In this document: one piece after another, positions 17,923 through 61,299 of the stretch
How the letters are laid out: each line of letters begins with the position of its first letter
Position numbering within the stretch: the first letter of the stretch is position 1
Assembly (NCBI GenBank): GCA_021295785.1
Contig: JAGWBR010000003.1
Coordinates: forward strand, 65,236 to 129,235
Length of the DNA: 64,000 nt
Reading direction: 5' to 3'
DNA from: Gemmatimonadota bacterium
GTDB lineage: Bacteria > Gemmatimonadota > Gemmatimonadetes > Palauibacterales > Palauibacteraceae
Program-made: the position numbers and the translations under genes
The notes under the pieces: generated by a model
Databases searched by the model: none
Seen by the model: only the letters and a program-made list of their open reading frames with translations
What the model was told of the DNA's origin: nothing

Positions 17923-18009
17923 CTGGTCAGCAGGTCTCGGTCCATTGAAATACGGCTCCTCAGCCCGCAAGGCATGACGCGCGCACCGGTCCAAACGTAA
18001 CTTCGCGGC

Positions 18010-19395
18010 GTGAAAACGATCACCCGGTACGTACTCCGCTTGCATGTGGCGCCGTTCTTTTTTTCGGTTTCGGCGCTCACACTGGTCTTCCTGATGGACC
18101 AGGTGGGCGAGAAACTCCCCGACCTGGCCGGCAAGGGCCTGCACTGGACCATCATCGTGAAGGTGTTTGGGCTTTCGCTTCCGTTCATCCTGGCGCAGAC
18201 CGTTCCCATGGGTGTGCTCATCGCCGCCCTTTACGTGTTCAGCCGACTCGAACTGGACCGGGAGATTACCGCGCTCAGGGCGGCGGGGGTCTCAATTGTG
18301 CGGACGGCGGGGCCGCTCTTGGTTGCCGCGGTGATGCTGACCGGGTTCATGGTTTGGTTTTCCGACCGCGTGCTGCCCGAGTCCAATCACGAGCTGACCA
18401 AACTGACGGTTGGGATCCAGAGGAAAAAGCCCCTTTTCTCCATGAGGGAAGGAACGCTCAACGGCGTATTGCCGCGAGTTTACTTGCAGGCGGCCCGGAT
18501 TGACCACGAAACCAACCAGATGTCCGAGGTTCGTCTCTACGACGAGCGGGGCGGTCAGCAGAGCCGGACGGTCTACGCGGACAGCGGCTCCACCACTCCC
18601 GGCAACAAGGGCACCGACCTTTTCCTTCACCTTGGGGACGGGGTGGTGCAGGAGAAACCGTGGCAGCGTTCGGACATGTTCCGGCAGATCCATTTTGACA
18701 ACATGATCATGAGGCTGCCCGATATCGCCAACGACCTGGAAGTTGACTCCGTCCAGGCGCGCGGCGAGCGCGAGATGTCGATTGCCGACATGAGGGTTGC
18801 CGCCGCCGAGGGGGACAAGCGGGCCGAACTGGCCAAGTCGGAAACCGGCGCGTTCACGCACCAGGTCACCCACCGGATCTTGGGGATTGCCGCCCCCGCG
18901 GAGTCCGGAGCGGAAGGGGTCGGGGGCGGAGCGGGCACCACCGAAGAGGCGCTGCAATTGGCCGCTGCCGATTCGACTTTCGCCGAGGCGCTGGGCACGG
19001 TGGTTCAGCGGGGCCGGGACCAGGGCGAGCGCGTGCACAGGACCGTGGAGGTAACCGAGACCTTCAGGCAGCTGACCGCCCGCGAACGCGCCGGCGTCAA
19101 CACCTCCCGGAGATACTGGGTTGAGATCCACAAGAAGGGTTCCATCCCGGCGGCCTGCATTGCATTCGTGCTGCTGGCCGTGCCAGTCGCCATTCGTTAT
19201 CCGAGGGGGGGAGTGGCTCTGGTGGCCGGGGTCAGCTTCACGATATTCGCGGCCTATTACCTGGCGCTCAGCGGCGGAGAGAAGCTGGCCGACCAAGACC
19301 TTGTGACGCCGCTGTGGGCGATGTGGCTGCCCAACGTCCTGTTTGGGGGAGTGGGCCTCTGGATTCTGATGCGCACCCGGACGGCGTTCCGGTGA
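18010..19395 (+). CDS. LptF/LptG-family (YjgP/YjgQ) LPS export permease
   Basis: GTG start. VKTITRYVLRLHVAPFFFSVSALTLVFL is the typical LptF/G N-terminus. Large periplasmic beta-jellyroll region. C-terminal TM helices (YWVEIHKKGSIPAACIAFVLLAVPVAI). Confidence 0.85.
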   Translation: MKTITRYVLRLHVAPFFFSVSALTLVFLMDQVGEKLPDLAGKGLHWTIIVKVFGLSLPFILAQTVPMGVLIAALYVFSRLELDREITALRAAGVSIVRTAGPLLVAAVMLTGFMVWFSDRVLPESNHELTKLTVGIQRKKPLFSMREGTLNGVLPRVYLQAARIDHETNQMSEVRLYDERGGQQSRTVYADSGSTTPGNKGTDLFLHLGDGVVQEKPWQRSDMFRQIHFDNMIMRLPDIANDLEVDSVQARGEREMSIADMRVAAAEGDKRAELAKSETGAFTHQVTHRILGIAAPAESGAEGVGGGAGTTEEALQLAAADSTFAEALGTVVQRGRDQGERVHRTVEVTETFRQLTARERAGVNTSRRYWVEIHKKGSIPAACIAFVLLAVPVAIRYPRGGVALVAGVSFTIFAAYYLALSGGEKLADQDLVTPLWAMWLPNVLFGGVGLWILMRTRTAFR

Positions 19396-44680: not shown

Positions 44681-45727
44681 ATGAAAAACGCCTCCTTTCG
44701 ACGTACCCGATTTCGTCGCATCCGGCGCTGGCTGGCGGTACCGCTTCTGCCTGCCGCGATGGCCGGTGCCGCTAGCGATTTGGGCGCGACTCAGGAACCG
44801 GACCATGCCACGGACCGGGACCCGGACTATCTGGGCACCTATTCCATTATTGCCCGGGACCCGGACACGGGCGAACTGGGCATGGGGGTCCAGTCCAAGG
44901 CCTTCGCCGCCGGCAACCGGGCCATGCACGCCCGGGGAGGGGTCGCCGTGATCGCCCACCAGGCCGCGGCGAATCCCATGTACGGAGGAATCGGGCTGGA
45001 GCTGTTGGAGGCCGGGTATTCACCTGAAGAAGCCCTGAACCAGATGGTCGCCGGCGACGAGGGCCGGGAGCGCCGCCAGGTAGCCATCCTGGACATTCGG
45101 GGACGTACCGCGGCATGGACCGGCACCGGGGCCAGCGACTGGAAGGGACACCGCTGCGGAGTCGATTACTGCGCCCAGGGGAATATTCTCACCGGTCCCG
45201 AAGTCGTGGACGCGATGGCGGAGTCCTTCGAGGGTTCTTCGGGGCCGTTGGCCGAACGCCTGCTCGACGCCCTCGATGCGGCGCAGGCGGCCGGGGGCGA
45301 CGCCCGCGGCATGCAGTCGGGTGCCATTCTTGTTGTCAGACCTCGGGTCGGGGGAGGCTTCAGCGACCGGGCGATCGACATTCGGGTGGACGATCATCAG
45401 CGCCCGTTGGCCGAGCTCAGGCGCCTGCTCGACAAGATCAGATCGGGTGAGATGCTGAGCGGGGCCCGCCGGTTGGCCAGAGAAGGAGAACTGAGCGCCG
45501 CGCTGCGTCAGGCCCAGGAGGCCGCGTTCAGATCGCAGGACAATGACAACGCGTGGATGACCCTGGCCGAAATCCACGCCGGTCTGGAGATGTGGAACGA
45601 GACGATCGAATCGCTCCAGAGGGCCGTGGCCCTTAACCAGTGGCGGCGCGCCGCGCTGGCCGACCACCCCGGCTTCGAGCCCCTTCGCGACGACCCCCGG
45701 TTTCGTGAACTGGTCCGGCCCCGGTGA
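44681..45727 (+). CDS. DUF1028 (Ntn-hydrolase-fold) protein with C-terminal TPR-like helical region
   Basis: GTYSIIARDPDTGELGMGVQSKAFAAGNRAMHARGGVAVIAHQAA is a DUF1028 signature; the first residue after signal cleavage is T/S. C-terminal helical repeats (AWMTLAEIHAGLEMWNETIESLQRAVALNQ). Confidence 0.7.
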   Translation: MKNASFRRTRFRRIRRWLAVPLLPAAMAGAASDLGATQEPDHATDRDPDYLGTYSIIARDPDTGELGMGVQSKAFAAGNRAMHARGGVAVIAHQAAANPMYGGIGLELLEAGYSPEEALNQMVAGDEGRERRQVAILDIRGRTAAWTGTGASDWKGHRCGVDYCAQGNILTGPEVVDAMAESFEGSSGPLAERLLDALDAAQAAGGDARGMQSGAILVVRPRVGGGFSDRAIDIRVDDHQRPLAELRRLLDKIRSGEMLSGARRLAREGELSAALRQAQEAAFRSQDNDNAWMTLAEIHAGLEMWNETIESLQRAVALNQWRRAALADHPGFEPLRDDPRFRELVRPR

Positions 45728-45757: not shown

Positions 45758-46003
45758 GTGTTGCCTTCCGCCGGGGACATGATCGCGCGGATCGATCAGC
45801 CTTTTGGAAGCCTGCTGTTCAGCCTGTTGGAGCCTCGGTCCGACGACGGCTTCGCCACCCGGGGATTCTTGGCCGACCGCCTGGAGGCAGGCGCGGTATC
45901 CCGTTTCACGGGTGCCGAGAGGCTGAACGAGCGCACGAAATTTGCGGGGTCCGAGGAATTCTGCCGCCCGATCATGAAGCGCGCGGGACGGAAGGAACCC
46001 TGA
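45758..46003 (+). CDS. Small hypothetical ORF (81 aa) ending 4 nt before the P450 fusion gene start
   Basis: Its TGA at 46001-46003 is followed by cgta and the ATG at 46008. A GGAAGGAA Shine-Dalgarno-like sequence lies inside its 3' end. No family recognised; could be a small operon-leader ORF. Confidence 0.25.
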   Translation: MLPSAGDMIARIDQPFGSLLFSLLEPRSDDGFATRGFLADRLEAGAVSRFTGAERLNERTKFAGSEEFCRPIMKRAGRKEP

Positions 46004-46007
46004 CGTA

Positions 46008-48407
46008 ATGTTTGCCGGACTTCGCGATCTTCGGCGCCGCGTGCGTGATACCACGGGGTTATTCGCCGAGCTGCACCGCCAGGGCGGGGCCATGGCCGAT
46101 TACCGCATCCTCGCCAAACGGTTCAATGTGGTTTTCGACCCGGAAATAATGGAAGAGGCACTGCTCCGGAAGCACGCCTGTTTGGGCAAGGGCAAGCAGC
46201 AACAGCGCACGCTCGACAACCTCTGCATCGTCACCGCCGACGGCGATGATCACAAGTGGCGCCGCAAACTGTTGCAGCCTTCCTTCACGCCGAATGCGCT
46301 GCGCGGCTACGCGGTGGCGATGGTTGAGGAGGCCGTTCGGCAGCGCGACTCGGTTCGTGACGGGCAGGAGCTCGACATCGATCACCTCAGCCACGAACTG
46401 TCCCTTTCCATCACGGCCCGGACGTTCTTCGGGGACGACCTGCACGTTGAGCCTGCGATCATGAAGGAAGCGCTGGCAGGTTACCGGTGGCGGGCCGTCT
46501 TGGGGCTGCTTCCCCTGGGGCGTGTGGTTAAGGCCCTGCCCCTGCCCCGCACCATCGCCAGCGAGAGGGCGATCAAGCGGCTGGACGACCGTGTTTACGA
46601 GGCCATCCGCAAAGCCCGGGCCAGCGCGCAGGAGCGCACTGATCTGATTGCCCACCTTGTGGCCGCCTGGGATGAGGGGCACCCTGCGGGGACATTTCCG
46701 GAAAGCGCGCTCAAAGACGAGGCTTTCGCGATCTTGGTGGCGGCTCACGAGAACACTGCGGTAACGCTGACTTGGTGCTTCTATCATCTGAGCCGTAACC
46801 CCGGGGCCCGCGAGCGCCTCGAAGCCGAGTTGGAAGAGGTACTTGGCCACCGTCTGCCGGACTTCGACGACGTTGAACGCCTGGTGTACACGAAGGCGGT
46901 AATGGACGAGACCATGCGACTGACCCCGACCGCAACGTATTTGGGTCGTACTGCGCTAGAGGATATTGAGTTGGGCGGTCGGCAAATCCCCAGACACTCT
47001 GTGACGCAGTTTTCGATCCGCACTCCGATGCGGGATGCGAAGTACTTCCCCCAACCGGAACGCTTCCGGCCCGAGCGCTGGCTCTCGTCCTCCGCCGACC
47101 TTCCGCGTCTGGCCTACGCGCCGTTCGGTGCCGGCAACCGGTTCTGCAGCGGGTTCAGGTTTGCCACCATCCAGATGGTACTGGCACTGGCGATCATTGC
47201 CCGGCGCTGGCGGTTTGAGCTGGTCTCCAAGGAAGATCCGGCAGTCGTTGATTTCATCATCTACAAATGCAAGGATGGTCTGCCGGTTGTGGCCCGCGAG
47301 CGGACAGGCAAGGCAGAAATTCCCGTTGGTGGCCCGCGAGCGAAACTTCAAACGAGGGGCCAGAAGGGCGGTCGCGTGACCGACATTCCGCCGGTTTTTG
47401 TCTTCAGCACCGGTCGGTGCGGCTCAACCATGGTCTCGGAGATGCTGAACCAGCACCCGGGCGTGCTCAGCATGTCCGAGTTCTTTGCGCAGCTCGGGGT
47501 GGCGGCTTTCACCCGGAAGAAAATCAGCGGCGACGAGATGTGGCGGATGTACAGCGAGCACACGCCCCGAATGCGGATCGTGACGTACGAGGGCCTGACC
47601 GAGGTGCTCTACCCGTTCACAGATCCCGTTGCCCGCTTCAACGCGGAAAACCTCCCGCCGATTCTGGCCGTGACGCTTCCTCACCTGACTGACAAGTACG
47701 AAGAACTGTTCGACGAGCTGGGTCCGGCCGTGCGCGCGATGTCCGACGCCACACCCGCCGACCATATCAGGGCGCTCTGCCAGTGGCTGTGCCAGCGACG
47801 GGGCTCAAGGGTGTGGGTGGAGCGTCATGGCGGCTCACTGATCCTTGCTTCGCGACTGCTGCGCTACTTCCCCGAGGCAAGGATTGTGCATATGTACCGG
47901 GACGGCCGTGAGACGGCGTTGTCGATGGCGAAACACCCTCCGTTCAAGCTGGCGCTGGCTCGGGCCAGGCGGGCCAGGCGTATTGGCCTTGACGCGTACC
48001 GTTTGCTCGAACGGTTCGAGCGGCGGGACCGGCTAACCCAGGCGATTCAGAAGGCCCAGTGGCGGATGACCGACCTGGACGCCTTCATGGCCGAGGAAGC
48101 GACCCTGCCCGAGGCGGCGGAACTCTGGAGCAAGATGATCGAAACCGGGCACCGGGTCTTCGGCCATTTCCCCCCCGACCGGCTGCTGAACCTGCGGTTC
48201 GAAGACATGCAACAGAATCCGGCTGAAGAGGCGCGTCGCCTCATCCGGTTCATTTCGCCGGAACTCGACGACGACGCTTGGGTAGCCGAGGTGGCGAAGA
48301 TCCCGCGCCAGACAGAATCGAAATTTGCGCAGCTGGACTCGGCCCAGCAGGCCGCGATCACGGCCGCGTGCCGCCCCGGGCTCGAGCGGCTGGGGTATTC
48401 GTCCTAG
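46008..48407 (+). CDS. Cytochrome P450 :: PAPS-dependent sulfotransferase fusion protein (799 aa)
   Basis: N-terminal approx. 430 aa has P450 signatures: I-helix VAAHENTAVTLTW, ExxR DETMRLTP, haem-binding loop FGAGNRFCSGFRFA (FxxGxRxCxG). C-terminal approx. 340 aa (from about 47388) has the sulfotransferase 5'-PSB P-loop PPVFVFSTGRCGSTMV and 3'-PB YRDGRETALSM (Sulfotransfer_3-like). Single uninterrupted frame; ATG at 46008. Confidence 0.85.
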   Translation: MFAGLRDLRRRVRDTTGLFAELHRQGGAMADYRILAKRFNVVFDPEIMEEALLRKHACLGKGKQQQRTLDNLCIVTADGDDHKWRRKLLQPSFTPNALRGYAVAMVEEAVRQRDSVRDGQELDIDHLSHELSLSITARTFFGDDLHVEPAIMKEALAGYRWRAVLGLLPLGRVVKALPLPRTIASERAIKRLDDRVYEAIRKARASAQERTDLIAHLVAAWDEGHPAGTFPESALKDEAFAILVAAHENTAVTLTWCFYHLSRNPGARERLEAELEEVLGHRLPDFDDVERLVYTKAVMDETMRLTPTATYLGRTALEDIELGGRQIPRHSVTQFSIRTPMRDAKYFPQPERFRPERWLSSSADLPRLAYAPFGAGNRFCSGFRFATIQMVLALAIIARRWRFELVSKEDPAVVDFIIYKCKDGLPVVARERTGKAEIPVGGPRAKLQTRGQKGGRVTDIPPVFVFSTGRCGSTMVSEMLNQHPGVLSMSEFFAQLGVAAFTRKKISGDEMWRMYSEHTPRMRIVTYEGLTEVLYPFTDPVARFNAENLPPILAVTLPHLTDKYEELFDELGPAVRAMSDATPADHIRALCQWLCQRRGSRVWVERHGGSLILASRLLRYFPEARIVHMYRDGRETALSMAKHPPFKLALARARRARRIGLDAYRLLERFERRDRLTQAIQKAQWRMTDLDAFMAEEATLPEAAELWSKMIETGHRVFGHFPPDRLLNLRFEDMQQNPAEEARRLIRFISPELDDDAWVAEVAKIPRQTESKFAQLDSAQQAAITAACRPGLERLGYSS

Positions 48408-48632
48408 CGCGCTATCGCGGGAATACTCACCGGTGGATGTCCCTGGCGACGCGAAAACCCATTGTGGAGGCGCTATGAGCGAGCCCCTGTCAGTTTGTCG
48501 TCCCGAATCTCCTGCTCGCTCAGCGGCTCGCAAGCGCAGCCAGTGTCCTCACCACCACTTTCACGAAATTCATGCTGCCCGTAACGCCCCACGCTAGAGC
48601 GCTAGTTGAGTTTGCGCAATTCATTGTCTAGA

Positions 48633-49727
48633 ATGCCGCGCCTACGACGCCAAACTCCGAGGTGCGTTTTGCCCAACATCGATACGCCCCCCGTGTTTGT
48701 GGTCAGCACCGGGCGGTGCGGTTCTACGATGGTCTCCAACATGGCCCGGCTGCACCCCCGGATTCTTAGCGTGTCCGAGTTCCTGGCGTGCCTGGCCGAC
48801 AAGGCGCTTGTTGGATCCCATCTTGACGGCGAGGGGTTGTACGAGCGCTTCGCCAATCTGCGCCCCGTTGGGAAGGCCCTGCTCCGCAACAACCTGATCG
48901 TCAGCGAATACCTCTACCCCGTTGGGCAGCCCGGGTCCCGGTTCGGACCCCGGGACGTGCCGGCAATCATGGGAGCTACGCTACCCCACCTGTCGGACGA
49001 CCCGGAAGCCCTCTGGGACGAGCTTGTCCCCGTGATCCGGGCGCGTGGCCGGTACACCTTGCAGGCCCAGTACAGGTTCTTTTTTGAATGGCTGGCCGTC
49101 CGTTTCGGCAAGGATGTGTGGATTGAACGGTCCGGGGCTTCGATTCTCAGCGTCCCGACCCTGGCCAGGCTCTTCCCCGACGCCCGTTTCGTGCATGTCT
49201 ACCGCGACGGCCGCGACACGGCCATCTCCATGCGGGGCCACTACGTGTTCCGCATGTACCTGGGCATGGCGATGCGTGGCAGGCGCGTCGGCATGGATTC
49301 TTTCAGCCCGCGCAACTGGCCGGGGACCAGTCGTTGGGTGCCCTGGTTCACTCCTCTGGTGTTTCGGAGCTTTGACGCCAAAGCCGACAATTTCCGCGAC
49401 AATCCCGCCGCGCTGCACGAGTTCGGGTGGTTGTGGAGCAGTATGATCGAACGGGGTACCAGATACTTGGACGCGCTCCCGAAGGACCGCGTCCTCAACA
49501 TGCGCTTTGAGACTGTACTAGAATCCCCCAAAGATGAAATGCGGCGGTTTGCCGAATTCGTGGGCCCAGGATTCGTGGACGAAGACTGGCTTGAACGGAT
49601 CACCTTGCTTCCCCGCAAGAAGACACCCAGCTGGATGAAGTTGACTTCCGACGAGCATGCCCGCCTGGCCGCAGCATGCACACCTGGACAGCGGATTCTG
49701 GAATACGCCCAAGACGAGCAGTCGTGA
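48633..49727 (+). CDS. Sulfotransferase (Sulfotransfer_3-like), paralogue of the C-terminal domain of the upstream fusion
   Basis: MPRLRRQTPRCVLPNIDTPPVFVVSTGRCGSTMVSNM (5'-PSB) and ARFVHVYRDGRDTAISM (3'-PB). Collinear similarity to residues about 460-799 of the fusion through to the C-terminus (VLNMRFETVLESPKDEMRRF vs LLNLRFEDMQQNPAEEARRL). The ORF track starts at TTG 48606; ATG 48633 is preferred. Confidence 0.8.
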   Translation: MPRLRRQTPRCVLPNIDTPPVFVVSTGRCGSTMVSNMARLHPRILSVSEFLACLADKALVGSHLDGEGLYERFANLRPVGKALLRNNLIVSEYLYPVGQPGSRFGPRDVPAIMGATLPHLSDDPEALWDELVPVIRARGRYTLQAQYRFFFEWLAVRFGKDVWIERSGASILSVPTLARLFPDARFVHVYRDGRDTAISMRGHYVFRMYLGMAMRGRRVGMDSFSPRNWPGTSRWVPWFTPLVFRSFDAKADNFRDNPAALHEFGWLWSSMIERGTRYLDALPKDRVLNMRFETVLESPKDEMRRFAEFVGPGFVDEDWLERITLLPRKKTPSWMKLTSDEHARLAAACTPGQRILEYAQDEQS

Positions 49728-50932
49728 TCACTACCGAGACCCGCGAGTTGGCTCAGTATCCCGAGACGGGACCCGCATGTTACCGCGAGCGTTTCGACCG
49801 GACTGTTGCGAAGGTGGGGCCGGCACTGGCCAGAGAATACGTCATCCAGGCCCAGGTTGGCGACCCGCCGGCCGATGTCGCGGTGCAGGAGCTGCAGCCG
49901 CGCGGGGTGACCGAGATCAACCGGCTGATCCGGGCCGGAATGGACCGCGACAAGGAGACGCTGAAGGAAGCGCCGCGATCACTGATCGACCTCTTTGAAG
50001 AGGTCAACGAACCGCCCGACTGGTGGGATCCCAAGGTGGCACAGGCCGGGATAAGGGCGTTCCATGCTCATTCCGACCTGTTTATTCCGGCCCTCTTCGT
50101 GTCCACGGTCCAGAACGCCTCCACGCTGATCGCGAAGTCGTTCCATGCCACCGGGCGCGTCAATTCACAGTTCGGGCCCAGGCGAATTCGCCAAAACACG
50201 CGCCACTTTATCGAAATCATGATGCCGGGCGGCCTGGACCGCGAGGGAGAAGGCTGGCGCCTGTCGGTGCGTATTCGTCTGGTGCACGCCCAGATTCGGC
50301 GCTTGATCCTGGATTACGGCGAGTGGGACGAAGCGACTTTCGGGGCCCCGATCCACGCCGCTCATTTGGGGGTCGCGGCGGCCAATTTTTCGGCCGGAAT
50401 GCTGCGCCATGCGACCGCGCTGGGTGCATCCCTCAGTGCGGAAGCCCGCGAGGGGTTCATGCATGCCTGGCGATACGCGTCATTGCTGACTGGTATCCCT
50501 GAAAGACTCCTTTTCGAAGGGAACGAAGAGAAGACGCGAGAGCTGTGGCGGACCGCCCGGGCGATTGAACCTCCGCCGGGCGAAGAGTCACTCGTCATCG
50601 CCACGGCCCTGTTCGACGCTCTGCCGAGGATTGCGGGCAAGCGGGAGGGGAAGGAATTCGACCAGGTGCGCACCCACGCCGCCCGCGTAACCCGGGCGCT
50701 AATTGGCCGGAAAACTGCAGACCGCCTGGAGTTGGCCCGGGGCATGCCGGGGGCGATGGCGGCGATGCGAACGCGGCGCAAACTCACCGGGCAACTGCAT
50801 AAGGTTGCGCCGACGGTCGCCGCGGCATGGCGCGCATCGGCCTTTTCCTTCCTGTTGGATGCTGCGCTGCTCGATGACCTGAAGTACACGCTGCCCGACA
50901 AGCTCAAGGCCACCGAGGCTACCCCCTGGTGA
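49724..50932 (+). CDS. MpaB/DUF2236-family (latex-clearing-protein-like) putative oxygenase
   Basis: GTG at 49724 overlaps the sulfotransferase TGA (GTGA). Conserved DUF2236 blocks: PDWWDPKVAQAGIRAFHAHSDL, RRIRQNTRHFIEIMMPGG, WRLSVRIRLVHAQIRR. About 400 aa. Confidence 0.65.
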   Translation: MITTETRELAQYPETGPACYRERFDRTVAKVGPALAREYVIQAQVGDPPADVAVQELQPRGVTEINRLIRAGMDRDKETLKEAPRSLIDLFEEVNEPPDWWDPKVAQAGIRAFHAHSDLFIPALFVSTVQNASTLIAKSFHATGRVNSQFGPRRIRQNTRHFIEIMMPGGLDREGEGWRLSVRIRLVHAQIRRLILDYGEWDEATFGAPIHAAHLGVAAANFSAGMLRHATALGASLSAEAREGFMHAWRYASLLTGIPERLLFEGNEEKTRELWRTARAIEPPPGEESLVIATALFDALPRIAGKREGKEFDQVRTHAARVTRALIGRKTADRLELARGMPGAMAAMRTRRKLTGQLHKVAPTVAAAWRASAFSFLLDAALLDDLKYTLPDKLKATEATPW

Positions 50933-50976: not shown

Positions 50977-51342
50977 GTGCCGCCTGAACTCAAACGGTGC
51001 CCCCGTTATCCGTGGACCTGCGTGAACAGCCACGATACCGTCCGGCCAAGATGTACCATTGCCCCCTTCACGATCGCCGGGGACCCGTGGCAGGAATTCG
51101 GGCGCCTCGCGGAGATCGTGCGCCGTCAGCCCCGCACCAAAATCGATACTGTGACCCAGGACTATCTGAGTGCGCGGTTCAGGACCCGGATCGCCTTCCC
51201 CGACCGGCTCGAACTCGTCTTGTCCCCGGACCAAGGAGTGATTCACGTGCGCTCGATGTCGATTCTGGCCCCGATTTGGGACTTTGGAGCGAATCGCAGG
51301 AGGGTCGAGTCCCTACGTGTCCAGTTTGAAGGCGAACGCTAG
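50977..51342 (+). CDS. Small hypothetical protein, DUF1499-like (tentative)
   Basis: 121-aa ORF between the oxygenase and cysD. C-terminal ...[21 protein letters not shown] resembles the DUF1499 motif. Family assignment is from memory and not certain. Confidence 0.35.
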
Positions 51343-51350
51343 GCCCGCCC

Positions 51351-52253
51351 GTGCGTGACGATCGCGTCCTGGCTGCCCTTGAGGACGAGGCGATCGAGAT
51401 CATCCGCGAGGGAGTGGCCGCGGCTTCCCGCCCCGTCATGCTCTATTCGATCGGCAAAGACTCCTCGGTCTTGCTTCGCCTGGCGCAGAGGGCTTTCTGG
51501 CCGGCCCCGCTGCCGATGCCTCTGCTGCACGTTGACACGACCTGGAAGTTCCGGGAGATGATCCAGTTCCGGGACCGCACGGCTGCCGAGGACGGGATCA
51601 AACTGATCGTGCACACCAATCAAGAAGGCGTGCAGGCTGGCGTCACGCCGTTCACGCATTCTTCGTCGCGCTATACCGAGGTGATGAAGACCGAGGCGCT
51701 GCGGCAGGCGCTCGACGCCGGCGGCTATGACATGATCTTCATCGGCGCCCGCCGGGACGAAGAGAAGTCGCGCGCCAAGGAGCGGATTTTCTCGTTTCGG
51801 AATGCGGCCCACCAGTGGGAGCCGCGGGCCCAGCGCCCCGAACTCTGGAACCTCTACAACACCCGGCTCGGGGCTGGCGAGTCGCTGCGGGTTGCCCCGA
51901 TGTCCAACTGGACCGAGGCCGACATCTGGCGCTACATCGCCGCCCGGGAAATCCCGATCGTGTCGCTTTACCATGCGGCCGAGCGGCCGGTGGTGGAGCG
52001 CGAGGGACAGCTCATCATGGTGGACGACGACCGCATGCCCCTGAATCCCGGCGAGGCGCCTGAGTCCCGGTTGGTGCGTTTTCGGACCCTGGGCTGCTAT
52101 CCCCTGACCGCCGCGGTCGAGAGCACGGCGACCACGCTGGACGCGATTATCGCCGAGACCCTGGCCGCCGACGGTTCGGAGCGCGAGGGACGCCTGATCG
52201 ACCACGATGACGAGGCCTCGATGGAGAAGAAGAAGCGGGACGGCTACTTCTGA
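51351..52253 (+). CDS. cysD: Sulfate adenylyltransferase subunit 2
   Basis: GTG start. [18 protein letters not shown] is the PAPS-reductase-like PP-loop. Motifs [50 protein letters not shown]. 300 aa. Confidence 0.95.
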
Positions 52254-54109
52254 TGGGCCGAGAAGTAACCTCCCCAACCTCCAACCGGCTTGCCCCACTC
52301 CGCCTTGTGCTTTGCGGGAGCGTGGACGACGGCAAGAGCACCTTGATCGGGCGAATGCTGTACGACAGCAACCAAGTCTTCGCCGATCAGCTCGGCAAAG
52401 TCGAAGCTGACTCTCGGCGGTGGGGCACGCAAGGCGAGAACATCGACCTCGCGCTGCTCCTGGACGGTTTGCAGGACGAACGCGAGCAGGGCATCACGAT
52501 CGATGTCGCCTACCGCTCTTTGGAGACGCCGCGGCGGCGGTTCATTGTTGCCGATGTGCCCGGCCACGAGCAGTACACGCGCAACATGGCGACGGGTGCC
52601 TCCACCGCGCAGGTGGCCATAATCCTGGTCAACGCGCGCCGGGGGATTCTGCCGCAAACGGCCCGCCACACGCGGATCGCGGCCATGTTCGGGGTGCGCC
52701 ATGTGGTGCTGGCGGTCAACAAGATGGACCTGGTCGATTGGGACCAGGCAACGTTTGAGGCGCTCGAAGAAGAGTACCGGGAGCTGACGGACGACGTCGG
52801 CGTGCCCGAGGTGGTGGCCATGCCGGTGTCCGGCCTGACCGGCGACAACCTCACGCGCCGCTCGGACAACATGCCCTGGTACGACGGTCCGACCCTGCTG
52901 GAGCACCTCGAAACCGTGCAAGTGACAGACCCGGGCGATGATGCCCCGTTCAGGATGCCGGTCCAGTACGTGAACCGCCCCCATTCGGAGTTCCGCGGGT
53001 ACTGCGGCCGCGTGGCTTCCGGGACGGTTAAACCCGGGCAGCGGATCCGGGTGGTGCCCGGGAGCAGCGAGTCACCGGTGAAATCGGTTCTGGTTGGCCG
53101 GGGCGAGGTCGAGCGCGCGGGCCGCGGCGATTCGGTCACGCTGACCTTTTCCACCGAGATTGACGTGACACGCGGGGACGTGATCGCCGACGCCGAAGAC
53201 GCACCGGCAGTCTCGGACCAGTTCCGCGCCTCGATCCTGTGGATGGGCGAGCAGCCGTTGGTGGCCGGGCGCCTGTACCTGCTCAAGATGCACACCCGCG
53301 AGGTCACGGCGAAGGTCACGTCCATTCGTCACTCGGTGGAGGTGCGCACCGGGGAGCGGCTTGCCGCCAAGCAGCTTGAGCTGAATGAGATCGGCGTGGT
53401 GAATTTGGCCACTTCCCGGCCCGTCCCGTTTGCCCCGTTCGAGGAGAACGGGAAGCTGGGCGGGTTCATCTTGGTGGACCGGGGCAACAACCGAACGGTT
53501 GCGGCAGGCACGATCAGTTACGCGCTCATGCGGGCAGCCAACGTGACGTGGCAACAATTCGACATCAGCCGCGAGGTCCGGGCGCAGCTCAAGCGGCAGG
53601 ATGCCCGGTGTCTGTGGTTCACGGGCCTGTCCGCGTCGGGCAAGTCCACGGTGGCGAATCTGCTGGAGCGACGCCTCTACATCGAAGGGCGGCACACCTA
53701 CCTGCTGGACGGCGACAACGTGCGCCACGGGTTGAACGCCGACCTGGGCTTCACCGAGATCGACCGTACCGAGAACATCCGGCGCGTGGCCGAGGTTGCG
53801 CGTTTGATGGTAGACGCCGGGTTGATCGTGATTGTGTCGTTCATCAGCCCGTTCCGGGCCGACCGCGAGATGGCGCGGGGGCTTTTCGAACCCGGGGAAT
53901 TTCTTGAGGTATTCATTGATGCGTCCGCCGAAGAGTGTGCCCGGCGCGACCCCAAGGGGCTCTACGCCAAGGCCCTGCGCGGCGAGATCAAGAACTTCAC
54001 GGGGATCAGCAGTCCGTACGAGCGGCCAGAGGAGCCCGAGATCCACCTCAGCACCGAGGAATTGTCGCCCGAAGACTGCGTCGAGGAGCTCCTCCGCAAA
54101 CTGAATTAG
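52253..54109 (+). CDS. cysNC: Bifunctional sulfate adenylyltransferase subunit 1 / adenylylsulfate (APS) kinase
   Basis: ATG overlaps the cysD stop (TGATG). N-terminal GTPase LRLVLCGSVDDGKSTLIGRML...DVPGHEQY...NKMD (CysN). C-terminal APS kinase CLWFTGLSASGKSTVANLL...LDGDNVRHGLNADLGFTE...SFISPFRADR (CysC). Confidence 0.95.
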   Translation: MGREVTSPTSNRLAPLRLVLCGSVDDGKSTLIGRMLYDSNQVFADQLGKVEADSRRWGTQGENIDLALLLDGLQDEREQGITIDVAYRSLETPRRRFIVADVPGHEQYTRNMATGASTAQVAIILVNARRGILPQTARHTRIAAMFGVRHVVLAVNKMDLVDWDQATFEALEEEYRELTDDVGVPEVVAMPVSGLTGDNLTRRSDNMPWYDGPTLLEHLETVQVTDPGDDAPFRMPVQYVNRPHSEFRGYCGRVASGTVKPGQRIRVVPGSSESPVKSVLVGRGEVERAGRGDSVTLTFSTEIDVTRGDVIADAEDAPAVSDQFRASILWMGEQPLVAGRLYLLKMHTREVTAKVTSIRHSVEVRTGERLAAKQLELNEIGVVNLATSRPVPFAPFEENGKLGGFILVDRGNNRTVAAGTISYALMRAANVTWQQFDISREVRAQLKRQDARCLWFTGLSASGKSTVANLLERRLYIEGRHTYLLDGDNVRHGLNADLGFTEIDRTENIRRVAEVARLMVDAGLIVIVSFISPFRADREMARGLFEPGEFLEVFIDASAEECARRDPKGLYAKALRGEIKNFTGISSPYERPEEPEIHLSTEELSPEDCVEELLRKLN

Positions 54110-58965: not shown

Positions 58966-61299
58966 TCACATCCTTACGATGAGATTACCGCCGGCAGGGT
59001 CGCCAGGCAACGCGCCGGCCGGCACGGGGCCCGACCCGTCGTCCGCCGGTGGCGATGCCCTGCCGATGACGGCGGCACCCCGGTCACCGGCTTCGCGGAG
59101 CCTGGCGACGACGGCCGAGGCCTGCCCGGGGGCCACTCCGAACAGAAGACCGCCCGATGTCTGGGGGTCAAACAGGAGTTCGGAGCGCACCGCGCGGAGT
59201 GGATCGCCTGCCCCGCCGCCCTGCTCCCCGGTTTCCGGGTCCACATTCCGGACAAAACGGATCTTGGCACGGAGGCGGGCGTTGTCAGGATGGAACGTGC
59301 TCCGGACTCCGGTCGCCAACAAAGGAAGCGCACCCGGCAAGGCGGGGAGAGACGCCAACCCAACCGTAACAGTGACGCCCGACGCCTCGGCCAGGGTCAT
59401 CAAGTGGCCAGCCAAGCCGAACCCGGTCACGTCGGTGGCTCCCGTCGCGCCCGCATCCCGTGCAACCCGCGCCGCGTTCCGGTTGGTGCGCACCATGGAC
59501 TCAAGCGCCGCCTGGAGCCACGCCCCGCGCGCCAGACCCAGCATGTCGCCGCGCAACACGACCCCGGTCCCCAGCGGTTTGGTGAGGATGATCTCCTGCC
59601 CGGGCAGGATTCCGCTGACGAGCAACGGCTCCTCCGCGCCCAAGAAACCCTCCACGTGGAATCCGACCGAGGTTTGCGATCCGACCACGGTGTGGCCGCC
59701 CACCAGAACGGTCCCGGTGGACGAGAGGACCTCCCGCGCCCCGCTCATTATTTGGTGCAACATCTCTTGCCGGTCGTCCGGTGTCGCCTGTTCGGGCACT
59801 GACACGACCGCCTGGGCAACTCCTGGCCGAACTCCCTTGGCCAGCACGTCCGAAACGGCGTTGGCCGCGGCAACACGCCCGAGCGTGTACGGGTCGTCCG
59901 TGAACTGGCGCACAATATCAACGCTGGCCACGACCGCCTCGCCGCCGGGAGTGCGGTAGGCGGCGGCGTCTTCCAACGGGCTCAGGCAAGGCACTATCGA
60001 GCCGGCCGCCCCCTTGGGGGAACCGAGCCGGTCGAGCACTGATTCCAGCTCGGCACGACCGAGTTTCGCCGCGCATCCACCGCAGGTCTCGTTCATGGAA
60101 GCCAGCATCGCAGCGGGACGCCGGAACTGCCGAGCCACCGCGCCGTCGGGGCCCAACACTTGGAAGCGCTTCATGAAGCGGCGGTCGATAAGGGCCTTCA
60201 GGCGCCAGGCCAGCGCACCCCCAAACACCAGTGACCCCTTTGCGCCGACCGCGCTGCCGTCACCCAGGTTGAGGAGGGTGAGGAACCGCCGCTGCGGCCG
60301 GTAGCGGGCGAACCTGCCGGACGGGCCGCCCGATCCGCCACGCAGCAAGGTCCCGGCGGCGCGGCGCAGGTTCTTGGCGAGCACTGGTCCCTGACGCACC
60401 GCGTACACACCGGCCTTGGGCACCCACGGGGCGACCTCCAACGCGGCGCAGTCCCCCACCGCGAACACCCTCGGATGCCCTCTGGCCTGGAGGGTCGGCC
60501 CCACCAAGACAAATCCGGCCGAATCCACCGCGAGTTCGCCCGGATCGAACCCGGCGGGCGGCGCGGCACCGGTGGTCCACAGCACGACCCTGGCTCGCTC
60601 AAACGCGGGAGTCGGCTCAGACGACGACCGGGACCACTCCAAACTCACGCCGTCGCGAGAGACCGCGCGAACCCGGCAGGACGTCAGAACCCTGATCCCC
60701 CGCCGCCGGGCTTCGGCCCGAATCCGGCGGGCGACCTGCTCCGGGTATCCCGGGAGAATGCGGTCCGAGGCCTCGATGAGAGTCGCCCGGCCCGAGCGAG
60801 CCGCAACCGCGAAGGCCAGTTCCACCCCCCCCGCCCCCGCACCGACCACTACCGCACTGGCGGGCTCAGACGGGTCAAGCGCACTCAGCCTCGCCGCCAG
60901 AGCGTCCCCAAACCGACCGAGCGGCCGCGTGGGAACCACATGCTCGGCAGCGCCCGGAACATCCATACCGCGGACGGAGGACCCGATATCGAAAGACACC
61001 AAGTCATATCGCAGTGCGGGTCGATCGGCCAGCAAGATCCGGCGACCGGCCAGGTCAACGCCCCGTGCCGCGGACAAAACCACGCGTGCCCCCGCCATCC
61101 GGGCCAGGGGCACGATGTCGATTTCCAATTGTTCGGCGGAGTACTGCCCGGCCACCAACCCGGGCACCATGCCCGAATAGACGGCGACCGGCACATCCAC
61201 TACCACGGTCACCCGCACCGCCGCCGGCAGCGACCGCATGACAATGCTTTTCAACACCTGCACGTGGGCGTGACCACCACCCACCAGCACCAGGTCCAC
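58966..61299 (-). CDS. selD: Fusion protein: FAD-dependent pyridine nucleotide-disulfide oxidoreductase (NADH-dehydrogenase-like) :: selenide, water dikinase (selenophosphate synthetase)
   Basis: GTG start. VDLVLVGGGHAHVQVL...AVVVGAGAGGVELA...VFAVGDCAA are the two Rossmann FAD/NAD motifs. From about aa 440: MNETCGGCAAKLG (SelD N-terminal Cys loop, Cys not Sec), then the AIR-synthase-like fold (VVASVDIV...DPYTLGRVAAANAVSDVLAKG; TDVTGFGLAGHL). Confidence 0.85.
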   Translation of the reverse strand: MDLVLVGGGHAHVQVLKSIVMRSLPAAVRVTVVVDVPVAVYSGMVPGLVAGQYSAEQLEIDIVPLARMAGARVVLSAARGVDLAGRRILLADRPALRYDLVSFDIGSSVRGMDVPGAAEHVVPTRPLGRFGDALAARLSALDPSEPASAVVVGAGAGGVELAFAVAARSGRATLIEASDRILPGYPEQVARRIRAEARRRGIRVLTSCRVRAVSRDGVSLEWSRSSSEPTPAFERARVVLWTTGAAPPAGFDPGELAVDSAGFVLVGPTLQARGHPRVFAVGDCAALEVAPWVPKAGVYAVRQGPVLAKNLRRAAGTLLRGGSGGPSGRFARYRPQRRFLTLLNLGDGSAVGAKGSLVFGGALAWRLKALIDRRFMKRFQVLGPDGAVARQFRRPAAMLASMNETCGGCAAKLGRAELESVLDRLGSPKGAAGSIVPCLSPLEDAAAYRTPGGEAVVASVDIVRQFTDDPYTLGRVAAANAVSDVLAKGVRPGVAQAVVSVPEQATPDDRQEMLHQIMSGAREVLSSTGTVLVGGHTVVGSQTSVGFHVEGFLGAEEPLLVSGILPGQEIILTKPLGTGVVLRGDMLGLARGAWLQAALESMVRTNRNAARVARDAGATGATDVTGFGLAGHLMTLAEASGVTVTVGLASLPALPGALPLLATGVRSTFHPDNARLRAKIRFVRNVDPETGEQGGGAGDPLRAVRSELLFDPQTSGGLLFGVAPGQASAVVARLREAGDRGAAVIGRASPPADDGSGPVPAGALPGDPAGGNLIVRM

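What the first reader, a model, noticed from the sequence alone, without database searches (positions are those of the whole stretch)
46008..48407. Single-polypeptide cytochrome P450 fused to a PAPS-type sulfotransferase
One uninterrupted 799-aa frame contains a complete P450: I-helix A-H-E-N-T, ExxR as ETMRL, and the Cys-ligand loop FGAGNRFCSG. It is followed by a complete sulfotransferase with a 5'-phosphosulfate-binding P-loop (PPVFVFSTGRCGSTMV) and a 3'-phosphate-binding YRDGRETALSM. I do not know of a characterised P450-sulfotransferase fusion. The architecture implies hydroxylation of a substrate followed at once by O-sulfation of the new hydroxyl by the same polypeptide. Two outcomes are possible. 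One is a sulfated end-product. The other is installation of sulfate as a leaving group for elimination or cyclisation, by analogy with the sulfotransferase-thioesterase logic of CurM/olefin synthases. The short connecting linker (KCKDGLPVVARERTGKAEIPVGGPRAKLQTRGQKGGRVTD) and a stand-alone paralogue immediately downstream argue against a simple assembly frameshift.
Basis: partly seen in the sequence, partly recalled or inferred. Interest (0 to 1): 0.88.

Follow-up and report, generated by a model that had tools for sequence, protein, structure and literature searches.

The report
Natural P450–sulfotransferase fusion in sponge symbiont
A sponge-associated bacterium really does encode one 799-residue protein joining a cytochrome P450 to a PAPS-type sulfotransferase; it arose when a 40-base duplication merged two neighbouring, translationally coupled genes of a "hydroxylate-then-sulfate" gene cassette that is widespread but unstudied in marine-invertebrate symbionts.

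Summary

It is not an assembly artefact. The same fused junction occurs in four independent DNA assemblies and six alleles, including a Petrosia ficiformis sponge metagenome.

It is lineage-specific. Every other relative has separate genes of about 440 aa (P450) and 343 aa (ST). These are often adjacent, and two have the P450 stop overlapping the ST start (GTGA). Removing 40 nt (47303-47342, a diverged copy of the preceding 39 nt plus one G) restores exactly that arrangement. One +1-shifting duplication therefore made the fusion.

The pair belongs to a cassette of P450 + ST + MpaB/Lcp-like haem oxygenase, usually with CysD/CysNC for PAPS supply. I found it in 13 of 16 related loci from Gemmatimonadota, Nitrospirota and Gammaproteobacteria. 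Independent ST-to-P450 fusions also exist.

The most likely function is hydroxylation followed by O-sulfation of a hydrophobic, possibly isoprenoid, substrate. The substrate is unknown. The closest known logic is M. tuberculosis cyp128/stf3. I found no published P450-ST fusion. Interest is moderate.

The parts
46008..48407 (+). Fused P450-sulfotransferase ORF, 799 aa, ATG start with GGAAGGAA 9-16 nt upstream
   Evidence: The same ORF is present in L004, L005 and L024.
46008..47315 (+). P450 domain (aa 1-436): I-helix AAHENTA (247-250), ExxR E301/R304, PERW 355-358, Cys loop FGAGNRFCSG with C380
   Evidence: Pfam 2.9e-61. Motifs are invariant in the subfamily alignments. 73% identical over its full length to the stand-alone 436-aa P450 of L006. 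Nearest PDB sequences are 3dbg, 7wzl, CYP97A3, CYP3A4 and BM3.
47264..47302 (+). Source copy of the duplication: last 13 conserved P450 codons (KCKDGLPVVARER)
47303..47342 (+). 40-nt insertion: a diverged tandem copy of 47264-47302 plus one extra G. It shifts the P450 frame by +1 into the ST frame.
   Evidence: Local alignment score 18; 0 of 2000 shuffles reach it, maximum 14. Exact 14-mer GTGGCCCGCGAGCG at 47289 and 47329. Deleting it restores a 443-aa P450 that ends at TGA overlapping the ST GTG.
47316..47375 (+). Linker, aa 437-456 (EIPVGGPRAKLQTRGQKGGR). It is made of the duplicated copy and the frame-shifted former P450 tail (+1 frame: ...VARERNFKRGARRAVA*).
   Evidence: It is the most variable stretch among the alleles but is always open. 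pLDDT is below 50 in the full-length model, which is itself poor.
47376..48407 (+). Sulfotransferase domain (aa 457-799), the former stand-alone ST gene. GTG start (ATG in allele L004) with GAAGGG upstream. 5'-PSB GRCGST (469-474), invariant E491, 3'-PB RDGRETALS (631-639).
47376..47379 (+). GTGA: relic of the ancestral overlap between the ST start (GTG) and the P450 stop (TGA, now in the +1 frame)
   Evidence: The same GTGA overlap is intact in L018 and L022.
48669..49727 (+). Stand-alone sulfotransferase paralogue ST2 (352 aa from TTG 48669; the longest ORF starts at 48606)
   Evidence: Orthologues lie in the Longimicrobiales cassettes.
49724..50932 (+). MpaB/Lcp-like (DUF2236) haem oxygenase, 402 aa as called in L004 (the longest ORF starts at 49676)
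   Evidence: Pfam PF09995 1.9e-13. PDB rubber oxygenase Lcp 1e-6. Co-occurs with the P450 in 13 of 16 loci.
51022..51342 (+). DUF1499 small protein; an occasional cassette member
   Evidence: Pfam hit in L004/L005. Also present in L017 and L023.
51351..52253 (+). CysD, sulfate adenylyltransferase small subunit
   Evidence: NCBIfam NF009214, 477 bits against a cut-off of 413
52253..54109 (+). CysN/CysC, sulfate adenylyltransferase large subunit fused to APS kinase (makes PAPS)
   Evidence: Pfam. NCBIfam NF004035, 926 bits against a cut-off of 715.

Best explanation
This is a genuine, lineage-specific gene fusion in an uncultured sponge-associated Gemmatimonadota bacterium.

Ancestrally, a 443-aa P450 gene and a 343-aa PAPS-dependent sulfotransferase gene lay head-to-tail, with the P450 stop overlapping the ST start (GTGA, translational coupling). 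A tandem duplication of the last 13 conserved P450 codons plus one extra base (40 nt in total) shifted the P450 frame by +1. It now reads past its old stop straight into the ST frame. The result is one polypeptide with an unstructured linker of about 20 aa. This step is shown by sequence reconstruction.

The two enzymes belong to a conserved cassette: P450 + ST + MpaB/Lcp-like haem oxygenase, usually with CysD/CysNC. The cassette makes its own PAPS. This is shown by comparative context.

Inferred mechanism: the P450, with a ferredoxin/reductase encoded elsewhere, hydroxylates a hydrophobic small molecule. The ST domain then O-sulfates that hydroxyl with PAPS from CysDNC. The product is a sulfate ester, which the paralogous ST2 and the MpaB-like oxygenase may process further. 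An isoprenoid or lipid-like substrate is the best guess, but it is only a guess. Fusion enforces 1:1 stoichiometry and proximity for two consecutive steps.

Confidence, by part: about 0.9 for the structural and evolutionary part (real fusion, origin, cassette), and about 0.6 for the consecutive hydroxylation-sulfation mechanism that gives a stable sulfate ester.
For: Real fusion:
- Open 799-aa frame.
- Six alleles and four independent DNA assemblies share the identical junction.
- One of these comes from the P. ficiformis metagenome LXNJ.

Both domains complete and motif-intact.

Origin:
- Stand-alone relatives end and start at residues 436 and 457.
- The GTGA overlap is intact in L018 and L022.
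- Deleting 47303-47342 restores it.
- The duplication is significant, with 0 of 2000 shuffles reaching its score.
- The lengths add up: 1332 + 1032 - 4 + 40 = 2400.

Functional coupling:
- An ST lies within 10 kb of the P450 in 14 of 16 distinct related loci.
- An MpaB-like gene is also present in 13 of the 16.
- CysD/CysNC is present in 10 of the 16. The loci span three phyla.
- Independent reverse-order fusions exist: P0245, P0255 and P0223. They share the ST family (33-41% identity) but have a different P450 family (24-26% identity).
- CysD and CysNC pass the NCBIfam cut-offs.

Substrate hint (weak):
- The nearest P450 models are terpenoid oxidases: albaflavenone monooxygenase, pentalenene oxygenase and CYP97A3.
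- The MpaB/Lcp family cleaves isoprenoid C=C bonds (family description in PMC6311187 as listed).
- P0255 sits with FAAL and MMPL lipid genes.
Against: - There is no expression, protein or activity data.
- The substrate is unknown.
- No ferredoxin or reductase lies in or near the cassette in any locus.
- The P450 scores far below the equivalog cut-offs of the terpene oxidases (206 against 700 bits), so the isoprenoid idea is weak.
- The conserved I-helix Thr is Asn249 here.
- The ancestral ST start with an SD-like motif persists at residue 457, so the ST may also be made separately.
- The alleles are too similar for a dN/dS test.
- The full-length AF2 model is poor (pLDDT 60), so nothing can be said about domain contacts or channelling.
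- The fusion is restricted to one lineage, so it may be merely tolerated rather than advantageous.
Confidence: 0.6

Rival explanations
1. Sulfate is installed as a leaving group, not as the end product. The P450 makes an alcohol and the ST activates it. Elimination or cyclisation then follows, spontaneously, in the ST active site, or assisted by the MpaB-like protein. Precedents are CurM/OLS ST-TE, retinol dehydratase and LGS1.
Against: - There is no thioesterase, ACP or PKS in the fusion or in any cassette.
- Many cassettes carry two STs and two P450s, and some lie next to RND exporters. That fits a poly-sulfated exported product better.
- Fold similarity at 12-21% identity does not predict the chemical outcome.
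Confidence: 0.13
2. The two domains act in the same pathway but not consecutively on the same atom. The ST sulfates a pre-existing hydroxyl, or one made by another enzyme. The P450 oxidises a different position. The role could be a phase I / phase II style detoxification of host (sponge) metabolites rather than biosynthesis.
For: - The window cassette has two STs but only one P450.
- Relatives have variable numbers of each.
- RND efflux pumps are adjacent in L001/L002, L007, L021 and L022.
- The P450 also resembles CYP3A4, E about 4e-31.
- Habitat: the fusion itself is from a sponge metagenome. Most related loci are uncultured MAGs whose names suggest host-associated projects; I confirmed the host only for LXNJ and LXNI.
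Against: - The P450 and ST are immediate, translationally coupled neighbours in several genomes.
- They have been fused at least twice independently, in both orders.
- That pattern is the classic signature of directly consecutive steps.
Confidence: 0.17
3. The fusion is real DNA but functionally neutral or degenerate. The ST is mainly translated on its own from the retained GTG/ATG at 47376. The P450 with its abnormal C-terminal extension is impaired or irrelevant.
For: - The internal start codon is conserved (GTG or ATG) and has GAAGGG 8 nt upstream.
- NCBI's own annotation of the source MAG calls only a 410-aa 'sulfotransferase' from an internal Met.
- The fusion is confined to one lineage.
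- Non-synonymous and synonymous counts among the alleles are uninformative.
Against: - All haem and PAPS motifs are intact.
- No stop or frameshift occurs in any of the six alleles.
- The duplicated copy has diverged about 27% from its source while the frame stayed open. This suggests the fused frame has persisted much longer than the allele coalescence (under 1% divergence).
- P450 relatives naturally carry C-terminal tails of 7-16 residues beyond GLPV, so an extension there is tolerated.
Confidence: 0.1
4. Assembly or sequencing artefact: a chimeric join or an erroneous indel creates a false continuous frame.
For: Only one 90%-identity cluster among 5.8 billion carries the architecture. The exact 799-aa window sequence is not in the protein collection.
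Against: - The same 40-nt insertion and open frame occur in four independent assemblies from different projects and years: window, ERZ15614335, ERZ23495298 and LXNJ01.
- They carry 13-19 scattered codon differences.
- A 40-nt duplicated segment is not a sequencing-error type.
- Synteny is conserved on both sides.
Confidence: 0.01

Closest known systems
M. tuberculosis cyp128-stf3 operon (sulfomenaquinone S881)
   Same: A bacterial P450 gene and a PAPS sulfotransferase gene sit in one operon. They are proposed to hydroxylate a hydrophobic isoprenoid chain (MK-9(H2)) and then O-sulfate it (PMC6469627). This is the same two-step logic. Mycobacterial Stf1 and Stf9 share the ST fold.
   Different: - There the proteins are separate; here they are fused.
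- The window P450 is nearest to CYP170-, CYP183- and CYP97-like enzymes.
- The cassette here also contains an MpaB/Lcp-like oxygenase, a second ST and CysD/CysNC.
- The host is a marine sponge symbiont (Gemmatimonadota), not an actinobacterial pathogen.
CurM / olefin synthase (OLS) ST-TE didomain
   Different: - There the fusion partner is a thioesterase inside a PKS, and the substrate is an ACP-bound beta-hydroxyacyl group.
- There sulfate serves as a leaving group.
- Here the partner is a P450, with no PKS, ACP or TE.
- Identity is only about 19%.
Tyrosylprotein sulfotransferases (TPST1/2; Pfam Sulfotransfer_3)
   Different: - TPSTs are eukaryotic Golgi enzymes that act on protein tyrosines.
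- The ST here has large helical insertions (343 aa, about 210 aligned) and a small-molecule context.
- Identity is 19-21%.
Natural P450 fusion proteins (P450 BM3/CYP102, CYP116B; GPP34-P450 of sponge symbionts)
   Same: A P450 is covalently joined to a partner domain. GPP34-P450 is reported as exclusive to sponge symbionts (PMC11706023). One such gene lies next to an ST of this family in L008.
   Different: - BM3 and CYP116B fuse the redox partner. Here the partner is the next catalytic enzyme and no reductase is present.
- GPP34 is a lipid-binding domain, not a catalytic one.
- The L008 P450 is only distantly related.
Reverse-order ST-P450 fusions found here (P0245, P0255, P0223)
   Same: Same ST family (33-41% identity) joined to a P450 in one polypeptide. 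P0255 lies in a lipid-type cluster.
   Different: - The domain order is opposite.
- The P450 family is different (24-26% identity; JGI calls P0255 'CYP135').
- P0223 additionally carries cNMP-binding, 2Fe-2S and FNR-like reductase domains.
- All three are uncharacterised metagenomic singletons.

Membership tests
Cytochrome P450 (PF00067) | Profile match above Pfam's gathering score over the whole fold | tested here: met
   208 bits against 22.8, aa 19-411 of the protein and positions 26-442 of the 462-position profile
Cytochrome P450 (PF00067) | Cys-ligand loop FxxGxRxCxG, ExxR and PERF motifs | tested here: met
   FGAGNRFCSG (C380), E301-x-x-R304 and PERW 355-358. All are invariant in the subfamily alignments.
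Cytochrome P450 (PF00067) | I-helix acid-alcohol pair (A/G-G-x-D/E-T-T/S) | tested here: inconclusive
   The sequence is AAHENTA. The acid E248 is present. The canonical Thr position is Asn249, followed by T250. Relatives vary (HETT, HVTI, HHTI). From memory, Asn at this site is known in P450cin, so this does not disqualify the protein.
Cytochrome P450 (PF00067) | Haem-thiolate spectrum and monooxygenase activity with a redox partner | not testable with these tools
   No redox partner is encoded in the cassette.
PAPS-dependent sulfotransferase (Sulfotransfer_3 / TPST-like) | Profile match above the gathering score | tested here: met
   PF13469 76.3 bits against 27. PF00685 39 bits against 22.
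PAPS-dependent sulfotransferase (Sulfotransfer_3 / TPST-like) | 5'-phosphosulfate-binding loop and 3'-phosphate-binding RX7S motif | tested here: met
   GRCGST (469-474) and R631...S639 are invariant in 27 family members. They align to TPST1 PRSGTT and RDGRASVHS.
PAPS-dependent sulfotransferase (Sulfotransfer_3 / TPST-like) | Sulfotransferase fold | tested here: met
PAPS-dependent sulfotransferase (Sulfotransfer_3 / TPST-like) | Catalytic base (Glu or His) after strand 2 | tested here: inconclusive
   E491 (E35 of the ST half) is invariant. It lies 21 residues after the PSB Arg. From memory this is the same spacing as R78/E99 in TPST2. I did not verify it by structural superposition.
cyp128/stf3 sulfomenaquinone system | P450 and ST co-operonic and acting consecutively | tested here: met
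   They are adjacent or overlapping genes in relatives, and fused here.
cyp128/stf3 sulfomenaquinone system | P450 is a CYP128 orthologue, ST is an Stf3 orthologue, and the substrate is menaquinone | not tested
The nearest models are albaflavenone and pentalenene oxygenases. The substrate is not testable here.
CurM/OLS activating ST-TE | ST followed by a thioesterase within a PKS module | tested here: not met
   No TE, ACP or KS domain is in the ORF, the window cassette or related loci.
Self-sufficient P450 (BM3 / CYP116B type) | Fused FMN/FAD or FMN/2Fe-2S reductase domain | tested here: not met
   Only p450 and sulfotransferase domains are present. The distant P0223 does carry a reductase.
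Sulfate activation CysD / CysNC | NCBIfam equivalog or subfamily score above the curated cut-off | tested here: met
   CysD 477 against 413. CysN/CysC 926 against 715.
MpaB / Lcp (DUF2236) haem oxygenase | Profile match above the gathering score and similarity to rubber oxygenase Lcp | tested here: met
   PF09995 51.5 bits against 23. PDB 5o1l and 5o1m at 1e-6. Haem ligands were not checked.

The most novel reading that the evidence does not exclude
The P450 / ST / MpaB-like / CysDNC cassette is a shared, horizontally spread pathway of sponge and coral symbionts. It would make, or modify, sulfated lipophilic metabolites of the holobiont. Examples would be the sulfated sterols and terpenoids long isolated from sponges, whose sulfation enzymes are unknown. 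The natural fusion would then be a single-polypeptide hydroxylase-sulfotransferase that channels its intermediate, usable directly as a one-enzyme C-H to C-OSO3 biocatalyst.
Probability: 0.15. Interest if true: 0.8.

Novelty: new variant of a known kind. Interest (0 to 1): 0.55.

Why it matters
P450-then-sulfotransferase is a familiar two-step logic. It is seen in animal phase I/II metabolism and proposed for mycobacterial sulfomenaquinone. I could not find a natural single-chain version in the literature.

This one comes with a clean evolutionary 'before and after'. Translationally coupled neighbours became one protein through a single 40-nt duplication. That makes it a ready-made experiment on what fusion buys in stoichiometry, proximity and channelling: delete 40 nt and compare.

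The conserved cassette may matter more than the fusion. It has its own PAPS supply and occurs in three phyla of uncultured bacteria, many apparently from marine-invertebrate hosts. It points to an unrecognised sulfated metabolite, or sulfation-based handling of host metabolites, in sponge and coral holobionts. The fusions serve as Rosetta-stone evidence that the P450 and the ST work together.

Practically, public annotation of the source MAG lists only a 410-aa 'sulfotransferase'.

Tried and rejected
1. Exact-word scan of GTDB species genomes with the fusion found nothing. The 19-sequence P450 profile was too diverse for pattern design. An 8-sequence profile worked.

2. Full-length MSAs A5-A8 were scrambled by MAFFT, with the P450 rows aligned onto the ST half. 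A4 contained a disallowed row. A11 aligned correctly, but the AF2 model was poor (pLDDT 60, pTM 0.47). I made no inference on domain packing.

3. A search for an unfused ancestral allele in JGI metagenomes (pattern GTTGTGGCCCGCGAGCGAAACTTC) gave 0 hits.

4. The idea that the linker derives from an L006-type stop/intergenic/start junction, or from a copy of the ST 5' end, is not significant (p = 0.17 and 0.93). I dropped it. Simple stop-codon loss is not needed either, once the 40-nt duplication is recognised.

5. The small ORF 45758-46003 as a ferredoxin: rejected. It has one Cys and no Pfam hit.

6. The 'cytochrome P422' preprint as a clue to the MpaB-like function: irrelevant. P422 is DUF6875.

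7. dN/dS among the alleles: too few differences, 13-19 codons.

8. The ST half against PDB by single-sequence phmmer gave no hit. It needed a profile and fold search.

9. The AFDB50 fold library was unavailable.

10. DUF1028, BNR, acyl-CoA synthetase and amidohydrolase as cassette members: rejected, because they are not conserved in related loci.

11. Rfam and tRNA scans of the window: nothing.
Full report
**1. Observation**

Window 46008..48407 (+) is one uninterrupted ORF of 799 codons with an ATG start. Pfam gives three matches:
- PF00067 p450 over aa 19-411: E 2.9e-61, 208 bits, cut-off 22.8.
- PF13469 Sulfotransfer_3 over aa 462-669: E 5.4e-21, 76 bits, cut-off 27.
- PF00685 Sulfotransfer_1 over aa 622-755.

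The P450 signatures are present and invariant in the subfamily. They are the Cys loop FGAGNRFCSG (C380), ExxR (E301/R304) and PERW (355-358). The I-helix reads AAHENTA: the acid E248 is present, and the usual Thr position is Asn249.

The ST half carries an invariant GRCGST loop, an invariant Glu (E491) and an RDGRETALS (RX7S) motif. In a profile search these align residue for residue with TPST1's PRSGTT and RDGRASVHS.

An AlphaFold2 model of the ST half is confident (pLDDT 88.7, pTM 0.88). It matches only PAPS sulfotransferases at the top of both fold searches:
- Foldseek: E 4e-7 to 1e-5.

Identity to these structures is only 12-21%. A single-sequence search of PDB found nothing. The ST is therefore a divergent, uncharacterised subfamily.

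The stand-alone paralogue downstream is real and 40% identical to the ST half.

**2. Is the join real?**

In a search of 5.8 billion protein clusters, only one cluster carried both domains. All other P450 relatives (up to 61% identical) were stand-alone, at about 450 aa.

That one cluster holds five distinct 799-aa sequences (98-99% identical) from ENA, NCBI, JGI and Logan assemblies. It also holds a 410-aa NCBI entry, 'sulfotransferase [Gemmatimonadota bacterium]'. That entry is 100% identical to the window from an internal Met (M390). The window is therefore probably that MAG, and the public annotation lists only this C-terminal piece.

At the DNA level, the junction is the same in four assemblies: the window, L004 (ERZ15614335), L005 (ERZ23495298) and L024 (LXNJ01000325). 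LXNJ is the Petrosia ficiformis sponge metagenome sequenced in 2013 (PMC5099237). The alleles differ at 13-19 scattered codons and none has a stop or frameshift. An assembly or sequencing artefact is excluded for practical purposes.

**3. How the fusion arose**

The closest ST relative, P0089 (79% identical), lies in L006. There it sits 5 nt downstream of a separate 436-aa P450. That P450 is 73% identical to the fusion's residues 1-436 and ends exactly at residue 436.

The L006 ST start codon aligns with residue 457 of the fusion. This codon is GTG in the window and ATG in allele L004.

In L018 and L022 the P450 stop overlaps the ST start as GTGA. In L021 the overlap is 8 nt.

In the window, the +1 frame of the linker reads ...PLVARERNFKRGARRAVA*. 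Its TGA overlaps the GTG at 47376, again as GTGA.

The segment 47308-47342 is a significant diverged copy of 47268-47302. The local alignment score is 18, and 0 of 2000 shuffles reach it (maximum 14). The two copies share an exact 14-mer, which is rare in this window: 3 of 213 tiles have a nearby direct repeat of at least 13 nt.

The duplicated unit is the last 13 conserved P450 codons (KCKDGLPVVARER, 39 nt). The second copy carries one extra G, so 40 nt were added.

Deleting 47303-47342 restores a 443-aa P450 that ends in a TGA overlapping the ST's GTG. The arithmetic closes: 1332 + 1032 - 4 + 40 = 2400 nt.

The linker (aa 437-456) is therefore made of a drifted copy of the P450 C-terminus plus the frame-shifted old P450 tail. 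The copy has diverged about 27% from its source, while the alleles differ by less than 1%. So the fused frame seems to have stayed open for much longer than the sampled population has existed. This is an inference, because imprecise duplication is an alternative.

An exact-match search for an allele without the insertion found none.

**4. Context: a conserved cassette**

In the window and in L004, L005 and L024, the gene order is: fusion, ST2, MpaB/Lcp-like (PF09995) oxygenase, DUF1499, CysD, CysN/CysC.

I built a profile of the P450 subfamily and found 11 loci in species-representative genomes. They come from Longimicrobiales and other Gemmatimonadota MAGs, a Nitrospirales MAG and two Gammaproteobacteria MAGs. 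Further contexts came from protein look-ups.

I annotated these loci with phmmer. Among 16 distinct non-self loci:
- 14 have an ST of this family within 10 kb of the P450.
- 13 also have an MpaB-like gene.
- 10 have CysD and/or CysNC.
- 2 have DUF1499.

DUF1028, the 81-aa ORF, BNR, the acyl-CoA synthetase and the amidohydrolase do not recur.

A typical relative is L021: P450-ST-MpaB-ST-P450-CysD-CysNC in one operon. In none of these loci are the P450 and ST fused.

The exhaustive HMMER search of 1.84 billion representatives, followed by Pfam, found three further fusions in the opposite order:
- P0245: 791 aa, ST-P450.
- P0255: 827 aa, ST-P450. It lies in a cluster with a fatty acyl-AMP ligase, an MMPL exporter, glycosyltransferases and other STs.
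- P0223: 1607 aa, ST-cNMP x2-2Fe2S-FNR-like reductase-P450.

Their ST domains are 33-41% identical to the window's, and their P450 domains only 24-26%. These are independent fusion events. Recurrent adjacency, translational coupling and repeated fusion in both orders are the classic evidence that the two enzymes act together.

**5. What it most likely does**

Shown: both catalytic domains are intact, and dedicated PAPS synthesis is co-encoded. CysD and CysNC are above the NCBIfam cut-offs.

Inferred: the P450 hydroxylates a hydrophobic substrate, and the ST O-sulfates that hydroxyl.

Three hints on the substrate are all weak:
- The nearest characterised P450 models are terpenoid oxidases. Albaflavenone monooxygenase scores 206 bits and pentalenene oxygenase 178 bits, both far below their 700-800-bit cut-offs. 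The nearest PDB sequences are 3dbg, 7wzl, the carotenoid hydroxylase CYP97A3, CYP3A4 and BM3.
- The MpaB/Lcp family comprises haem oxygenases that cleave isoprenoid double bonds (Pfam description). Its similarity to rubber oxygenase is 1e-6.
- P0255's neighbours are lipid genes.

RND efflux pumps flank the module in several loci. FGE-sulfatase-domain genes flank it in three.

The rest of the window is ordinary chromosome (gyrB, icd, LptF/G, LpxL/MsbA-like and so on). It has no terpene synthase, PKS or NRPS, and no ferredoxin or reductase. The redox partner must be encoded elsewhere.

**6. Comparison with what is known**

The closest known logic is the M. tuberculosis cyp128-stf3 operon. CYP128 is proposed to hydroxylate MK-9(H2), and Stf3 sulfates it to give S881 (PMC6469627). 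This locus works like that system, but membership was not tested, because no CYP128 or Stf3 sequences were available here.

The CurM/OLS ST-TE didomain shares the fold and the principle of an ST fused to its pathway partner. Its defining TE/PKS context is absent, so that membership test is not met.

It is not a self-sufficient P450, since it has no reductase domain.

P450 fusions to accessory domains do recur in sponge symbionts (GPP34-P450, PMC11706023). One such gene sits beside an ST of this family in L008, from the Sarcotragus foetidus metagenome.

Full-text searches found no paper describing a P450-sulfotransferase fusion.

**7. Verdict**

The fusion is real, but it is young and narrow in distribution, and it was produced by a small duplication. 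Its functional meaning (channelling versus merely tolerated) is untested. The ST may also be translated on its own from the retained start codon, which has an SD-like GAAGGG upstream.

The finding of more general interest is the cassette, which I did not find described in the literature I searched. It spans three phyla of uncultured bacteria, and the fusions give Rosetta-stone support for its two-step logic.

I rate it a new variant of a known kind, with interest 0.55.

The full-length AF2 model was too poor to use (pLDDT 60).

Noticed in passing
window 47175-48407 (aa 390-799 of the ORF): The public NCBI protein for this locus (MCE2422105.1, 'sulfotransferase [Gemmatimonadota bacterium]', 410 aa) starts at an internal Met inside the P450 L-helix. 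The only public protein I found for this gene is this truncated piece; I could not see how the MAG's own record treats the P450 half.
   Followed up: partly
window 46746-46757 (aa 247-250); alignment A9: The P450 I-helix is unusual in this subfamily. The window and L006 have HENT, with Asn in place of the conserved Thr. Other members have HVTI or HHTI, with no acidic residue, and others the canonical HETT. This may indicate atypical oxygen activation or substrate-assisted catalysis.
   Followed up: partly
P0223 (Logan, 28 kb contig): A 1607-aa mega-fusion: sulfotransferase, two cNMP-binding domains, a BFD-like 2Fe-2S domain, an FAD/NAD (FNR-like) reductase and a P450. It would be a self-sufficient, possibly cyclic-nucleotide-regulated hydroxylase-sulfotransferase. 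It is a singleton, and neither its origin nor its gene-call reliability was checked.
   Followed up: no
L008 4308-6332 (LXNI01001030, Sarcotragus foetidus metagenome): A GPP34-P450 fusion (674 aa), an architecture published as exclusive to sponge symbionts. It lies directly downstream of an ST 67% identical to the window's ST half, and upstream of two FGE-sulfatase-domain genes. This links the GPP34-P450 proteins to sulfation, which the GPP34 paper does not mention (no occurrence of 'sulfat' in its main text).
   Followed up: partly
L006 6403-8511; L008 6366-8765; L022 7297-9907: SH3-fused FGE-sulfatase-domain (PF03781) genes recur next to the P450/ST module in three loci. Their role is unknown; possibilities include sulfatase maturation or EgtB-like chemistry.
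   Followed up: no
L001/L002 1-4359; L007 1446-5816; L021 17579-21410; L022 1323-5699: RND efflux systems (ACR_tran with a periplasmic adaptor, and OEP in some) flank the P450 or the P450/ST module in several loci. This is compatible with export of an amphipathic sulfated product.
   Followed up: no
L011 9797-11287; L018 7146-8376; L007 7051-8219: Some cassette genes in related MAGs are split. The L011 P450 is broken by an in-frame stop, the L018 MpaB-like gene is in two ORFs, and a second ST in L007 is in three pieces. These are pseudogenes or long-read indel errors.
   Followed up: no
L001-L003 (P0002; P. ficiformis metagenome, LXNJ01 and JGI PetF): The closest stand-alone P450 in the protein search (61% identical) comes from the same sponge metagenome as one fusion allele. 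It has no ST nearby. It is followed by an Amidohydro_2 gene and preceded by an RND pump, so this P450 subfamily is not always ST-linked.
   Followed up: partly
window 58966-61299 (-): A 776-aa fusion of a pyridine-nucleotide-disulfide oxidoreductase (Pyr_redox_2) with AIRS/AIRS_C domains (SelD/ThiL-like), next to GTP cyclohydrolase I.
   Followed up: no
window 16348-18144 (-): A response-regulator receiver domain fused to a PglZ (alkaline-phosphatase-like) domain, 598 aa.
   Followed up: no
window 44681-45727 (+): A DUF1028 protein with a C-terminal 'TPR end-of-group' match lies immediately upstream of the fusion. It is syntenic in the fusion-bearing strains L004 and L005 (L024's flank does not reach it) but absent from all other cassettes.
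   Followed up: partly
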